Source: Octopus sinensis
Lineage: Eukaryota
Length of the DNA stretch: 64,000 nt
Direction: 5' to 3'
NCBI RefSeq assembly: GCF_006345805.1
Contig: NC_043018.1
Span: 8,308,001 to 8,372,000, forward strand
Shown: positions 51,033 to 61,123 of the stretch, piece after piece
How positions within the stretch are numbered: the first letter of the stretch is position 1
Layout of the letters: the number at the start of each line of letters is the position of its first letter
Position numbers and translations under genes: made by a program
The notes under the pieces: generated by a model
Told to the model about the DNA's origin: nothing
The model's database searches: none
The model's input: only the letters and a program-made list of their open reading frames with translations

Positions 51033-51103
51033 GGCAGCTTAGCTTAATGGTAGAGTGCTCAGCCGGTATCCGAGGAGTGTGGGTACATGTCCCGTGGCTG
51101 TCT
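51033..51103 (+). tRNA. tRNA-like pseudogene (GGT in anticodon position, Thr-like) within a repeat
   Basis: Cloverleaf: ggcagct/ggctgtc, gctt/gagt, ctcag/ccgag, gtggg/cccgt; T-loop degenerate. Confidence 0.55.
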
Positions 51104-55332: not shown

Positions 55333-56057
55333 TGCTGTTGCTGCTGCTGTTGCTGCTGCTGTTGCTGCTGCTGCTGTTGCTGCTGCTGCTGTTACAACAA
55401 ATTGGAAAACAACATGAAAGAAAGCTTTCTGTCAGGCTGGGTTTGCAGAAAAGAAATTCTTTTTATCAATTGATTAAGTATGTTGTGAGAGAACATATCA
55501 ATCTATACAATTGTTGACAAATATGTACACCGTTAACACATATTCAAGAAAGTGTGTCGTGTATATAGTTATATTTTTCTTACAAAACACACAGACCGCA
55601 TAGAAGCGCTTAACTTGACACTGAGACATTAGGTAAGCATAATGTCCCAGTTTCAAGTTGAGCACTTCTCTGTGGTCCATAATGCAGTCAGGCAAACTAC
55701 AATGGATTCGATTTAGATAAAAATATATATTATAGCACTCCCTTATCTTCTTCTTCTTCTTCTTCTTCTTCTTCTTCTTCTTCTTCTTCTTCTTCTTCTT
55801 CTCCTCCTCCTCCTCCTCCTCCTCTGCCAAGAATTTACAACAACCTCAAACCCACAAGTGTAAACCAGACAAGACAGAGACAGACAGAAACAAGCAAAAT
55901 GCCCTCTTTATTTGAATACTACGCAAATATTCTTTTAAAAATCTTTTCTTTTAATTTTTCCAAAATTCAATTTTTCTCCATGACGGAAACCAGTACTGAA
56001 ATATTTTTTATTAAATTACTTTAGCATTTTCTACCTTGACTTTTTTTCCATATTGAT

Positions 56058-56090
<33 letters not shown>

Positions 56091-56091
<1 letters not shown>

Positions 56092-57883
56092 GCTAAAGAA
56101 ATGGCAGAAATACTGCAGAAACAATACTGCTCTGTCTTCAGTGTTCCCACTGATATTGACGTGAGGGAAACGAACGAAGTTGACTCCCAACACAAAATCT
56201 CAGACATAACCTTCACTGCCACCGACATCGTAGCAGCAATAAATGAGGTCAAACATTACTCTGCTGTAGGCCCTGATAGATTTCCCGCTAGTCTCCTGAA
56301 GGAATGTAGATACCAACTTGCAGTCCCTCTGACCAACCTCTGGAGAAATTCGTTAGACGCAGGTTATATACCGAAACATTTTCTATGCCAGTCGGTCATC
56401 CCGGTTTTCAAACAGGGAAGCAGATCCCTTGCAGTCAACTATCGCCCAATCTCACTCACCTCCCACATCATTAAAGTGTTTGAAAGAGTGTTAAGATCAA
56501 GGATAGCTGACTTCCTGGAGACCCACAAACTCCTAAATTCAAATCAGCATGGCTTTCGCTGTGGCAGGGACTGTCTAACACAGCTCTTACACCACATTGA
56601 AGATGTACTCAAAGCCTTGGAAACAGGTTCGAACTCTGACGTCATATATCTTGACTTCAGTAAAGCGTTCGACAGGGTAGACCATAACATCCTACTCTCA
56701 AAATTGGCAAATGTTGGAATCCGTGGAAAAGTTCTACACTGGATTAAGTATTTCCTGGCGAATAGAACACAACATGTTGTAGTTGATGGAGTCCACTCAA
56801 ACCCAGCAAAAGTCACCAGCGGTGTTCCCCAGGGAACTGTTTTGGGTCCGCTACTCTTCATAATTTACGTAAACGACCTTTCCAGTGTCGTACATTACTG
56901 CAAAGTGAAAATATTCGCTGATGACACTAAGCTCCAGCAAATCGTCAATGAAGAAGCAGACCGAACTCAACTCCAGTCTGACCTATATGCTGTGAGTCAA
57001 TGGGCAGACAGAAACAAAATGCAACTGAATGAGGGAAAATTTGAGCTGATGCATTTTGGAAGAAATTCCTCACTAAAACAGCCATACTCTCTTCCTTCAG
57101 GGGAACCGCTCACAGCCTCTAACAATATCAGAGACCTGGGTGTAATTGTTGATGACGATCTCAGTTGGAGTGCACACATCAACAAGAAGGTCGATATAGC
57201 TCGTAGGATGAGTTCCTGGATCTTAAGAACTTTCCGGTCCAGAGAACAAGGTGTCATCATACCACTTTTTTCCTCCTTTGTACGGCCACACCTTGAATAC
57301 TGCTGCCCACTGTGGTCTCCTCACACAAGACAAAACATCTCCAGAATTGAGTCACCCCAGAGGGCTCTCACTAAACAAATTGAAGGCATGGCTGCTCTTG
57401 ATTATTGGGATCGCCTTAAAGCCTTGAAACTTTACTCCCTCCAGCGTCGCCGTGAGCGGTACATCATTTGTACGATGTGGAAAATATACCGCCAACTTTG
57501 CCCAAACGACCTAAACATTAGCTTCAAGGTTCATCCAAGACTTGGACCACAGGCTATACGTCCCCTGATAAATTCAAGATCACAACATACATGTACACTG
57601 CAACATAATTTCTTTTCCTCAACAGGCCCTGCCCTATTTAACATTGTCCCAAGGGAGATCAAAGAGGAAAAGGATCCCATCAACTTTAAACAGAGTCTGG
57701 ATAGATTCCTTCAAAGAATACCAGATAAGCCACCCATAATTGGATACAACTCACCCAACAAGAACTCACTACTTGAACAAAACTTGACTTAAACAGGATT
57801 CGAATAATCCTATCAGGTGGTGCTATTAAGTTAGACATGGCCTGGACCAATCTTTGGTCGAAACATATCTAAGTTTATCTAAG

Positions 57884-57888
<5 letters not shown>
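56091..57888 (+). mobile_element. young 5'-truncated LINE inserted in (TA)n
   Basis: 3' UTR stem-loop gaccaa-tct-ttggtc-gaaac and tandem tail (tatctaagtt)x2. Confidence 0.9.
56092..57792 (+). CDS. LINE reverse transcriptase (CR1/L2 group), 5'-truncated, uninterrupted
   Basis: ~567 codons with GPDRF, NYRPISLTS, QHGFR, YLDFSKAFDRV, SGVPQGTVLGPLLF, FADD and RDLGV motifs; the ORF-track start at 56053 lies in a microsatellite. Confidence 0.95.
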   Translation, partial: AKEMAEILQKQYCSVFSVPTDIDVRETNEVDSQHKISDITFTATDIVAAINEVKHYSAVGPDRFPASLLKECRYQLAVPLTNLWRNSLDAGYIPKHFLCQSVIPVFKQGSRSLAVNYRPISLTSHIIKVFERVLRSRIADFLETHKLLNSNQHGFRCGRDCLTQLLHHIEDVLKALETGSNSDVIYLDFSKAFDRVDHNILLSKLANVGIRGKVLHWIKYFLANRTQHVVVDGVHSNPAKVTSGVPQGTVLGPLLFIIYVNDLSSVVHYCKVKIFADDTKLQQIVNEEADRTQLQSDLYAVSQWADRNKMQLNEGKFELMHFGRNSSLKQPYSLPSGEPLTASNNIRDLGVIVDDDLSWSAHINKKVDIARRMSSWILRTFRSREQGVIIPLFSSFVRPHLEYCCPLWSPHTRQNISRIESPQRALTKQIEGMAALDYWDRLKALKLYSLQRRRERYIICTMWKIYRQLCPNDLNISFKVHPRLGPQAIRPLINSRSQHTCTLQHNFFSSTGPALFNIVPREIKEEKDPINFKQSLDRFLQRIPDKPPIIGYNSPNKNSLLEQNLT

Positions 57889-57933
<45 letters not shown>

Positions 57934-57942
57934 TATAGAAGG

Positions 57943-57993
57943 AGCTTCTACAGGACTAGAACTGTTTCATTCAAGAGAAATCTTCAGGAAGCT
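57943..57993 (-). ncRNA. type I hammerhead ribozyme (left arm)
   Basis: Exact reverse complement of 59199-59249. Confidence 0.75.
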
Positions 57994-58837
57994 AGTTAAC
58001 AAGAATTGTATTGGCATTTATACATTTAGGCAGGTTTAAAGGGGTGTTGGTGGGGGACTTTCTGGGGGTAGGCATAGCGCAAAAAAATCATACTTGGGGG
58101 AGTGGTCAAGGAGTCAGTGTTAAATTAGATATGTATACATACACACACTCACTTGCATACACGTATACACACATGTATATATACACACACGACCACACAT
58201 ACATATACACACAGAAAAATATATATATACACATGCACACACATCTACTCACATACACGCATACACACACAAATCCATACACACACATGCACACACATAC
58301 ACACATATATATACACCCACACATACACATACATACACATATATATACATACATACACATACATATACACATATATATGCATACACATATATATATATAT
58401 ATACACATATATATACATATGTGTACCCATGCATACCTACACATACACACATATATATATACATATACAAATACAGACCCATTCCCTAATTTTAATTTTA
58501 TTATCTTCGTTTATTACTTTTGTTATCTTTGGCCGCTTGGTCACAAACATCTTGGCTATGACAGCCAGACCATTTATCCGTCTACTGGAAAACAATTACT
58601 CATTCACTCACGCACACTCTTTAGCACGTACACGCACTCATTCGTACACTCATACGCATACACGCACGCACGCGTTATATTCATACATACATACATCTAC
58701 ATACATTCACGTATATACACATACGTACGCGTACCTACAGATTCATGTCTACACTCTTAGAAGGCTAGTCTATACATATACACCAATAAATATAAATACA
58801 CACACATACATGTACACCTACATACATGTACACCTAC

Positions 58838-58926
<89 letters not shown>

Positions 58927-59198
58927 CTATTTTTTATTTTTTTTTATTTTTATTTTTTATTTTTTATTTTTTATATTTTTTATTTTCTATTTTTTTTTTA
59001 TTTTTTATATTTTATATTTTTTATTTTTTATTTTTTATTTTTTATTTTTTATTTATTCTCCTATCTAATTTAACACTGACTCCTTGACCACTCCCCCAAG
59101 TATGATTTTTTGCGCTATGCCTACCCCCAGAAAGTCCCCCACCAACACCCCTTTAAACCTGCCTAAATGTATAAATGCCAATACAATTCTTGTTAACT

Positions 59199-59249
59199 AG
59201 CTTCCTGAAGATTTCTCTTGAATGAAACAGTTCTAGTCCTGTAGAAGCT
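59199..59249 (+). ncRNA. type I hammerhead ribozyme (right arm)
   Basis: agcttc-CTGAAGA-t-ttc(tctt)gaa-t-GAA-acag(ttctagtc)ctgt-A-gaagct; GUA cleavage site at 59241-59243. Confidence 0.75.
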
Positions 59250-59411
59250 CCTTCTATATAATAAATTAATTTTACTCTGCTATGTATTGAGTACCTTATT
59301 TACTGTGGTTAACCCCGAATCAACCCGGGACCTACATATATATATATATATATATATAAATATACAAAGATTATATATATATATATATATATATAAAGAT
59401 TATATATATAT

Positions 59412-59627
59412 GGCCAGCCTCGTCTGGCACCTGTGTCGGTGGCACATAAAATCACCCACTACACTCTCGGAGTGGTTGGCGTTAGGAAGGGCATCCAGCT
59501 GTAGAAACACTGCCACATCTGACTGGCCTGGTGCAGCCTTCGGGCTTCCCAGACCCCAGTTGAACCGTCCAACCCATGCTAGCATGGAAAGCGGACGTTA
59601 AACGATGATGATGATGATGATGATGAT
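59412..59627 (+). mobile_element. RTE LINE 3' tail
   Basis: Shared tail plus (GAT)n. Confidence 0.85.
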
Positions 59628-59954
59628 ATATGTATGTATGTATGTATGTATGTATAGACATTTGTGTGTATTTGTTTGTCCCCCCACCATCGCTTCACAA
59701 CTGATGTTGGTGTGTTTAAGTACCCCTAACTTAGCGGTTTGGCAAAAGAGACTAATAGAATAAGTACTAAGCTTGTTCTGATAGATACGAAAGAAACACT
59801 TTCTTGATGTCTACTTCAATTAATAAATTACCAGTGCAATAATAGGGTTGTGTTTCAGTGCTTATACTGCAGAATCTATCTGTCACAGAAGCATCTGGGA
59901 GTCCCAGAATGCTTAGAAATGGAAGCCAGATCACTGAATCTGATATAAAAATAA

Positions 59955-60262
59955 TGCCAGTGCCAGTGGCACATAAAAGAACCATCTGAACGTGGCCGTT
60001 GCCAGCACTGCCTCAACTGGCCTCCATGCCAGTGGCACGTAAAAAAAACACCAACCGATTTTGGCCGTTGCCAGCCTCGCCTGGCACATAAAAAGCACCT
60101 ACTACACTCATGGAGTGGTTGGCGTTAGGAAGGGCATCCAGCTGTAGAAACTCTGCTAGATCAGACTGGGCCTGGTGCAACCTCCTGGCTTCCCAGACCC
60201 CAGTCGAACCATCCAACCCATGCTAGCATGGAAAGCGAACGTTAAATGATGATGATGATGAT
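59955..60262 (+). mobile_element. RTE LINE 3' UTR/tail
   Basis: Shared tail plus (GAT)n. Confidence 0.85.
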
Positions 60263-60451
60263 GAATAAACACAAATGAGATTTGATCAATTATTGATGAT
60301 ATCATTAAGGAACTGACTCATGAGATATATGCTTGACCGAGATCTCATTTCATCTTTTGGTGCACTTTTTCTTATAAGGTCATCAGCTATACATCTAGTG
60401 CTTTTTAGCCATTAGCAACCAGGAGCCATGAAGCAATGAGGTACACCCTAA

Positions 60452-60867: not shown

Positions 60868-61082
60868 TACTCCTTTACTTGTTTCAGTCATGTGACTGTG
60901 GCCATGCTGGAGCACCGTCTTTAGCCGAGCAAATCGACCCTAGGACTTATTCTTTGTAAGCCTAGTACTTATTCTATCGGTCTCTTTTGCCGAACCACTA
61001 AGTTACGGGGACGTAAACACACCAGCATCAGTTGTCAAGCAATGTTGGGGGGACAAACACAGACACACAAACATATACACTC

Positions 61083-61123
<41 letters not shown>

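What the first reader, a model, noticed from the sequence alone, without database searches (positions are those of the whole stretch)
57924..59337. Young ORF-less element with a 207-bp near-perfect inverted repeat, each arm holding a complete hammerhead ribozyme
Seen: the arms differ only by one base in a homopolymer as far as I can read. Each has a 6-bp stem I, CUGAAGA core, short stem II with a U-U at its base, GAA, 4-bp stem III with a CTAG-containing loop, and a GUA site. The ribozymes face outward on opposite strands around a 930-bp microsatellite-rich spacer. Known: inverted pseudo-LTRs and type I hammerheads are PLE hallmarks. Inference: transcripts from either strand carry one sense ribozyme preceded by its antisense, so self-cleavage competes with a 207-bp duplex (ADAR/Dicer substrate). 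This could be a built-in switch in a non-autonomous retrozyme-like element.
Basis: partly seen in the sequence, partly recalled or inferred. Interest (0 to 1): 0.8.

Follow-up and report, generated by a model that had tools for sequence, protein, structure and literature searches.

The report
Back-to-back Penelope retroelement stubs with hammerheads
This is a recent insertion of two shortened, back-to-back end pieces of a protein-coding Penelope-like jumping gene, each carrying its hammerhead ribozyme motif, and its many sister copies suggest that the element's RNA likely begins at the first letter of the ribozyme and is likely copied from two fixed start points, one into each side of the DNA break.

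Summary
In detail: 207/208-bp arms differing by one homopolymer base, each with a full type I hammerhead motif. This is not a separate non-autonomous element with a spacer. It is one insertion of a young autonomous Hydra-clade Penelope-like element (RT + GIY-YIG parent in the genome; 1655 exact hammerhead copies) into (TA)n: two 5'-truncated 3' ends back to back. The 'spacer' is mostly the left copy's own 3'UTR; the 207-bp length comes from a deletion private to this locus. Inverted pLTRs, a tail at one end and opposite-strand hammerhead pairs are published. The family adds mechanism: 90 of 92 inverted insertions have one short and one long end; 5' ends pile up at the first base of stem I (about 380 mini-palindromes), 29 nt below a TATAAAT, and not at the cut site. 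A second family (44% identical protein) repeats both patterns. I infer a transcription start at the ribozyme edge and priming from both sides of the break. The scan noted the 5' pile-up before in fish and shark DNA. No RNA ends or cleavage were measured.

The parts
55984..57792 (+). Context: 5'-truncated LINE, open RT frame of 602 codons; its (TA)n tail is the target site
   Evidence: (Pfam RVT_1, E 5e-32)
57888..57923 (.). (TA)n target, left side; no target-site duplication other than TA repeat
57924..58131 (-). Left arm: pLTR end of the left copy, stopping at the family's fixed short (S) end
57943..57993 (-). Left hammerhead motif, predicted cut after 57949; inferred transcription start 57993
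   Evidence: mirror of the right arm
58016..58022 (-). TATAAAT of the left arm
58129..58131 (-). Junction of a locus-private deletion (about 250-380 bp depending on the reference copy), 3-bp microhomology; it sets the 207-bp repeat length
58132..58840 (-). Microsatellite-rich 3'UTR of the left copy (most of the supposed spacer)
   Evidence: 58126-58904 aligns to L083, L082, L050 at 89-92%
58841..58923 (.). (TA)n run in which the two inverted copies are joined
58924..59061 (+). T-rich tract of the right copy's 3'UTR
59062..59268 (+). Right arm: pLTR of the right copy
59170..59176 (+). TATAAAT, 29 nt before the inferred transcription start
   Evidence: positional enrichment in relatives
59199..59249 (+). 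Right type I hammerhead motif; 59199 is the family's 5' wall (inferred RNA start); predicted cut after 59243
59240..59258 (+). Predicted competing hairpin that covers the cut site and the 3' strand of stem I
59267..59339 (+). 'Tail' (about 70 nt) up to the family's fixed long (L) end; in full-length copies it continues into the leader, ATG at +184 from the inferred start
59340..59411 (.). (TA)n target, right side

Best explanation
The 1.4-kb insert consists of two 5'-truncated end pieces of a young, protein-coding Hydra-clade Penelope-like retroelement lying back to back in a (TA)n run, likely made in one integration event in which each side of the cut DNA primed its own cDNA. Shown: the parent (unit about 4.8-5.8 kb: pLTR, hammerhead, tail, RT-GIY-YIG ORF, microsatellite 3'UTR) is in the genome; insertions have one short (S) and one long (L) end; 5' ends pile up at the first base of hammerhead stem I. 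Inferred: the endonuclease cuts both strands of (TA)n; one free end primes at site L (59339), the other at site S (59266) of RNA from the same source copy; the two cDNAs grow inward and are joined where they can anneal, here by self-complementary (TA)n; a later or concurrent deletion with 3-bp microhomology shortened the left copy and left a 207-bp repeat. Inferred for the family: transcription starts at 59199, 29 nt below TATAAAT; priming near this 5' end gives run-off cDNAs of 68 and 141 nt, which are either joined to each other (about 200-bp mini-palindromes) or jump to another RNA end. The ribozyme in the template's 5' copy is mostly uncut. The insert itself is a dead by-product, not a switch.
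For: Parent: ORF pieces with RT and GIY-YIG next to the same arm; 688-codon open frame in L085; 1297 homologues at E<=0.001 among 8000 scored; Hydra motifs RWR, DKT, CxCX5C, CxxC and CxH around E and N (against PMC8557442 section 11). S+L rule: 50 of 51 outward pairs on contig C1 chosen by an exact hammerhead are S+L, 1 is cut-site+L (window left out); in a disjoint set chosen by end motifs 40 of 41 are S+L and 1 is L+L (after reading two rows with AT-rich noise hits by eye); adjacent listed ends give 41 of 41 S+L (overlaps both sets); family B 14 of 15. Neither arm can be a plain copy of the other: the S arm holds 3'UTR that the L arm lacks, the L arm holds the tail that the S arm lacks, and either type can be the long arm. 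Same template: both window arms share a substitution seen in none of the other 136 arms; paired arms share 1.06 substitutions against 0.26 in shuffles, 0 of 2000 reach it (35 rows, of which 2 are loci fetched twice and 1 faces inward). 5' wall: 379/381 strand hits of head-to-head minis, 340 ends followed by C or G; in the motif-independent set 47 of 113 5' ends lie at 134-144, 22 at 145-179, 3 at 180-186, 2 at 11-133. Better palindromes nearby (GTTAAC at 131, CTAG at 136) are not hot spots. Jumps from the wall to other positions: L203, L204, L205, L409. TATA-like word 33-41 nt before the core in 14 of 25 Hydra-type hammerheads, shuffle mean 1.9, max 8 of 2000. Family B: 458 minis with a wall 17 nt before the core, at a YYANWYY match (the initiator consensus is recalled).
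Against: No RNA 5' end, cap or cleavage was observed; all support for the start site is from DNA copies. The cap-G signature is weak: C follows the wall in 86 of 100 listed ends against 14 G, but most of these C are also explained by microhomology; only 5 ends in 4 loci among 30 fetched loci are clearly untemplated C, against 1 G. The TATA window was set after looking at the data, includes the query family itself, and several relatives are kin; 11 of 25 lack the word; family B's best TATA-like word (-27) is poor. One L+L pair exists (L391). Whether long arms are primed at the 3' pLTR of a read-through RNA or arise by a jump is not decided. Junction mapping of long pairs failed for most loci because of the microsatellites, so joining at (TA)n is shown only for this locus and a few others.
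Confidence: 0.75

Rival explanations
1. Fold-back (self-priming): one cDNA folds at a short palindrome and copies itself, giving the inverted arm, as proposed for rotifer Penelope elements (PMC3846280, discussion passage).
For: Arms share private variants; 31 of the first 54 listed mini junctions are perfect palindromes centred on AGCT (counted by eye); L199 joins at a palindrome at the same reference position on both sides.
Against: At this locus each arm holds sequence that the other lacks; S-ended and L-ended arms can each be the ORF-bearing one; non-palindromic joints stop at the same wall (L156, L176).
Confidence: 0.12
2. One reading: a non-autonomous retrozyme-like element whose antisense arm is a built-in switch on self-cleavage.
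For: The insert has no ORF; a read-through RNA would form a 207-bp duplex; hammerhead-bearing tandem derivatives of this family exist elsewhere (L200, L201).
Against: The deletion junction is unique, so this form has not spread; arm lengths differ at every locus; no tandem units here; the element's own predicted promoter lies inside the arm and excludes the antisense.
Confidence: 0.04
3. The 5' wall is made by RNA processing (a 3' splice site or a nuclease) or by an RT pause at the ribozyme, not by a transcription start.
For: 59199-59200 is an AG; in Drosophila virilis Penelope an intron ends at the 5' end of helix I (PMC4209133, results).
Against: Most ends keep the AG; no constant upstream exon follows the wall; RT would meet the 3' strand of stem I first, and there is no pile-up there; in family B the wall is 17 nt before the core; TATA at -29.
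Confidence: 0.07
4. TA-targeting DNA transposon (MITE) or an assembly artefact.
For: Near-perfect terminal inverted repeats in TA context; the assembly has homopolymer errors.
Against: Ends are asymmetric by a fixed 73 nt; the same arm lies beside an RT-GIY-YIG ORF; 29 of 67 clusters on C1 are inverted pairs by exact match alone; the arms carry a private shared variant.
Confidence: 0.02

Closest known systems
Hydra clade of C-terminal EN+ Penelope-like elements (Craig et al. 2021, PMC8557442)
   Same: RWK-type, DKT and CxCX5C motifs, C-terminal GIY-YIG without CCHH, canonical hammerhead, (TA)n target, partial tandems and inverted 5'-truncated copies with a tail at one end
   Different: Unit 4.8-5.8 kb because of a 2-3 kb microsatellite 3'UTR (Hydra elements generally <3 kb); tail about 70 nt rather than the 30-40 nt given for PLEs
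Poseidon element PAc of Anolis (Frangieh et al. 2024, PMC11167929)
   Same: Two internal RT start sites just 3' of the hammerhead that bound the genomic tail; both target strands cut and extended; AT-rich target; uncut RNA is the main template; ribozyme silent without protein; predicted dimer
   Different: In vitro PAc showed no difference in start site between strands, whereas genomic insertions here pair one S with one L in 90 of 92 cases; PAc's ORF starts inside the ribozyme, here at +184
Adineta vaga Penelope insertions (Arkhipova et al. 2013, PMC3846280)
   Same: Inverted pLTRs, tail on one of them, palindromes at the inverted junction, TATA and Inr-like words in the pLTR
   Different: Those copies often have 8-10 bp TSDs; the authors favour self-priming on an antisense template; no link of the start site to the ribozyme in the passages read
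PLE hammerheads and animal non-LTR retrozymes (Cervera and de la Pena 2014, PMC4209133; Li et al. 2026, 10.64898/2026.07.22.740005)
   Same: Type I hammerhead in the pLTR; pairs of motifs 100-700 bp apart on opposite strands already reported in Schistosoma
   Different: Retrozymes are head-to-tail tandem units; this locus has none. Stem III here is a full 4 bp with an 8-nt loop, not the minimal form

Membership tests
Penelope-like element, EN+ | Single ORF with RT and GIY-YIG endonuclease in the parent | tested here: met
   Pfam itself gave no RT or GIY-YIG hit on the L050 pieces, homologues carry PF26215, PF28514, PF01541, PF00078
Penelope-like element, EN+ | pLTRs in direct (partial tandem) and inverted arrangement | tested here: met
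Penelope-like element, EN+ | [quoted passage not shown] | tested here: met
   73 nt, longer than the usual 30-40
Penelope-like element, EN+ | Hammerhead motif in the pLTR upstream of the ORF | tested here: met
Hydra clade | RWK motif and DKT in place of DKG | tested here: met
   RWR and DKT (in L085 DKT is disturbed by an A-run)
Hydra clade | CxCX5C linker; no CCHH; CxxC and CxH flanking E and N | tested here: met
   L050 C-terminal frame, read by eye against PMC8557442 section 11
Hydra clade | Insertion into (TA)n | tested here: met
Hydra clade | Placement in an RT tree with named Hydra references | not tested
   reference sequences are in supplements that were not read
Type I hammerhead ribozyme | Conserved core, three stems, NUH site, covariation in relatives | tested here: met
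   same layout on the sense strand in 30 of 78 related loci; among 24 non-redundant ones U-U at the base of stem II in 17, GUA in 15, stems fully changed; Rfam gives no hit
Type I hammerhead ribozyme | Self-cleavage | not testable with these tools
   only hints: one jump onto the cut position (L134), one end near it (L183), one exact cut-site/(TA)n junction genome-wide
Non-LTR retrozyme | Head-to-tail tandem units, each with a hammerhead | tested here: not met
   only two inverted copies in the window
MITE / TIR DNA transposon | Symmetric TIRs at both termini with TSD, fixed family length | tested here: not met

The most novel reading that the evidence does not exclude
Penelope-like elements replicate with a retrovirus-like strong-stop step built on the ribozyme: transcription starts at the hammerhead's 5' edge, the hammerhead in the 3' pLTR cuts the RNA so that start-to-cut (45 nt here) becomes a terminal repeat, a dimeric RT primes two strong-stop cDNAs from two fixed sites, one per DNA end, and transfer to the 3' repeat regenerates the promoter; failed transfers leave hundreds of 200-bp palindromes. 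This would explain pLTRs, tails, inversions and the ribozyme in one scheme.
Probability: 0.3. Interest if true: 0.78.

Novelty: new member of a known kind. Interest (0 to 1): 0.5.

Why it matters
The locus itself is an ordinary dead PLE insertion. The family matters because how PLEs make inverted and tandem structures, and what their hammerhead does, are stated open questions (PMC8557442, PMC11167929). A very young family with more than a thousand near-identical ends gives base-exact predictions: RNA start at +1 = first base of stem I, RT starts at +68 and +141, one per DNA end, no use of RNA cut at +45. These can be tested with CAGE and with the existing in vitro PLE assay, and intact ORFs of a sister family are in the same genome.

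Tried and rejected
Rfam: no hammerhead hit. Pfam did not recognise the PLE RT or endonuclease pieces. Viral contigs: 13 pattern matches, no relative. Sequencing runs: no RNA holder listed on record as RNA, only contigs; contigs of four guessed-RNA runs cover arm and ORF but cannot show starts, cuts or editing; their loose ends at the wall may be transcribed mini copies. No listed contig of four further runs bridges the deletion junction at 58130 (repeats were skipped, so this says nothing on the assembly). Automatic mapping of inversion junctions failed for most of 35 long pairs because of microsatellites; its '28 of 35 TA' count is not used. Low variation in the hammerhead among copies is not used as evidence of selection, since loci were chosen by an exact hammerhead match. 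A cap-G signature was sought and found ambiguous. A pile-up of 5' ends at the cut site was sought and not found (3 of 113). My descriptor missed family B's hammerhead in most loci (4-bp stem I before a bulge); it was read by eye. Look-ups of earlier notes by place and by sequence gave nothing.

Full report
Observation. The arms are real: 57924-58131 (minus) and 59062-59268 (plus) differ by one base in a T-run, with 930 nt between them. Each holds a type I hammerhead motif as described: 6-bp stem I, CUGAAGA, U-U then 3-bp stem II, GAA, 4-bp stem III with a CTAG-containing loop, GUA. Rfam does not call it, and the hammerhead fold is predicted to be a minor state because a hairpin at 59240-59258 covers the cut site. 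The host is an unnamed animal with a 2.7-Gb genome.

The family. The arm has 1341 first-look candidates, the 41 listed matches being 99-100% identical; the 49-nt ribozyme occurs exactly 1655 times. [quoted passage not shown] Full-length copies read pLTR, hammerhead, tail, leader, ORF, 3'UTR, pLTR, with units of 4.8-5.8 kb; only 30 places read from the tail on into the leader. L085 holds a 688-codon frame that shifts near the end. The protein has 1297 homologues among 8000 scored, about 700 aa long and mostly 39-45% identical, and shows the motifs given for the Hydra clade: RWK-type, DKT, CxCX5C, CxxC and CxH around E and N, no CCHH, (TA)n targets, canonical hammerheads (PMC8557442 section 11). 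No tree with named references was built.

This locus. 58126-58904 aligns to the parent's 3'UTR on the minus strand (89-92% to three natural copies) and 58903-59346 to the T-rich tract, arm and tail on the plus strand. So the insert is two truncated 3' ends joined in a (TA)n run. The left copy lacks about 250-380 bp just inside its arm, with a 3-bp microhomology; that junction occurs once in the genome. The 207-bp figure is therefore an accident of this locus; elsewhere the two ribozymes of a pair lie 47 to 10,478 bp apart (29 pairs among 67 clusters from the first 100 matches). Both arms share one substitution absent from the other 136 arms examined, and paired arms in general share variants far above shuffles (1.06 against 0.26; 0 of 2000; 35 rows that include two loci fetched twice and one inward-facing pair): both arms come from one source copy.

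Two fixed ends, one per side. Ends fall at arm position about 205 (S, window 59266) or 278 (L, 59339), followed by (TA)n; exact end motifs occur 1203 and 1717 times. Of 51 outward-facing pairs on contig C1 picked by an exact ribozyme, 50 are S+L and one is cut-site+L (window excluded). Of 41 further pairs picked by end motifs, 40 are S+L and one L+L (two rows with AT-rich noise corrected by eye). A second Hydra-type family in the genome, 44% identical in protein, has ends 70 nt apart and 14 of 15 minis S+L. A tail at one end only is known (PMC8557442 Fig. 2 legend; PMC3846280), and PAc primes at two sites that bound the tail (PMC11167929). The near-strict pairing points to an asymmetric step. 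Since the S arm here holds UTR that the L arm lacks and the L arm holds the tail, neither is a plain fold-back copy of the other; priming from both DNA ends is the simplest reading (inference).

A 5' wall at the ribozyme edge. Many copies stop at arm position 138 (59199), the first base of stem I: about 380 head-to-head minis of about 200 bp (379 and 381 strand hits) and 340 ends followed by C or G. In loci picked without regard to the ribozyme, 47 of 113 5' ends lie at 134-144, 22 at 145-179, 3 at 180-186 (the cut site), 2 at 11-133, 16 run beyond, and 23 lie above 186, some of them noise. Neighbouring palindromes are not hot spots, and no constant exon follows the wall. TATAAAT starts 29 nt upstream. 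In metagenome contigs, 30 of 78 related loci show a same-strand hammerhead of the same build, with stems fully changed; a TATA-like word lies 33-41 nt before the core in 14 of 25 non-redundant cases including this family, against 1-4 in other bins and a shuffle mean of 1.9 (window chosen after looking, some loci are kin). Family B has 458 minis with a wall 17 nt before the core. I infer a polymerase II start at the wall. The cap-G sign is only suggestive. Four loci show a cDNA that reached the wall and jumped to another position (L203, L204, L205, L409), and one shows a jump onto the cut position (L134).

How it likely works. The endonuclease cuts (TA)n on both strands; one end primes at L, the other at S; the cDNAs are joined by microhomology. 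Priming near the RNA's 5' end gives 68- and 141-nt run-offs, joined as minis or rescued by a jump; longer arms, as here, come from the 3' pLTR, either by priming on a read-through RNA or after such a jump. The template's 5' ribozyme is mostly uncut, as found for PAc in vitro (PMC11167929); the local hairpin or bound protein may hold it off. All steps in this paragraph are inference from DNA copies.

What is known. Inverted pLTRs with a one-sided tail, and opposite-strand hammerhead pairs 100-700 bp apart, are in print (PMC8557442, PMC3846280, PMC4209133). Four full-text searches found no paper that places the start site at the ribozyme edge or states the one-S-one-L rule; subscription papers are missing from the library, among them the D. 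virilis Penelope promoter study (recalled, not read), and supplements of PMC11167929 and PMC8557442 were not read and may bear on this. Seen: PMC11167929 parts 1-2 of 4 (abstract and main text); PMC4209133 parts 1-2 of 4; PMC8557442 passages and section 11; PMC3846280 passages; 10.64898/2026.07.22.740005 part 1 of 5; PMC13282606 passages, nothing on hammerheads or Hydra. Earlier notes of this scan report minis and the 5' wall in fish and shark DNA; I read them after my own counts, and they are not independent proof.

Verdict. The locus is a new member of a known kind, a dead inverted PLE insertion. The family gives base-exact, testable predictions on PLE replication, which is where the interest lies: 0.5.

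Noticed in passing
L200 (G000:C16:42874500-42877900) and L201 (G000:C9:87420100-87422600): Tandem arrays of about 250-bp and 420-bp deletion derivatives of this PLE, one TATA and one hammerhead per unit, inverted in the middle, with one S and one L outer end: retrozyme-like arrays apparently born from the PLE.
   Followed up: partly
L316-L345, L346-L360: Second Hydra-type family with many intact ORFs of about 711 aa, its own hammerhead, 458 mini-palindromes and the same end rules; further families at about 48% to the query are also listed.
   Followed up: partly
L094 (G000:C2:87785700-87795600): Internally deleted derivative in which the endonuclease region is joined to arm position 181-183, next to the cut site, in all three copies of the insert.
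   Followed up: no
window 55984-57890: 5'-truncated LINE with an uninterrupted RT frame; its 3' end has a small stem-loop followed by GAAAC and a doubled 10-nt unit before (TA)n. The same LINE tail lies beside an S end at another locus (loose end).
   Followed up: partly
window 59415-59625 and 60060-60265: Two copies of a SINE-like repeat ending in (GAT)n, 90-93% alike.
   Followed up: no
window 59626-59774 and 60958-61106: Another inverted pair, 149 nt, 85% complementary, probably two copies of a dispersed repeat.
   Followed up: no
window 51033-51103: tRNA-like match (Rfam 35 bits), possibly a SINE head.
   Followed up: no
L052:797-862 in run X4: Contig depth above 20,000 over the upstream part of the arm in one guessed-RNA run, against about 7 over the ORF; unexplained.
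   Followed up: no
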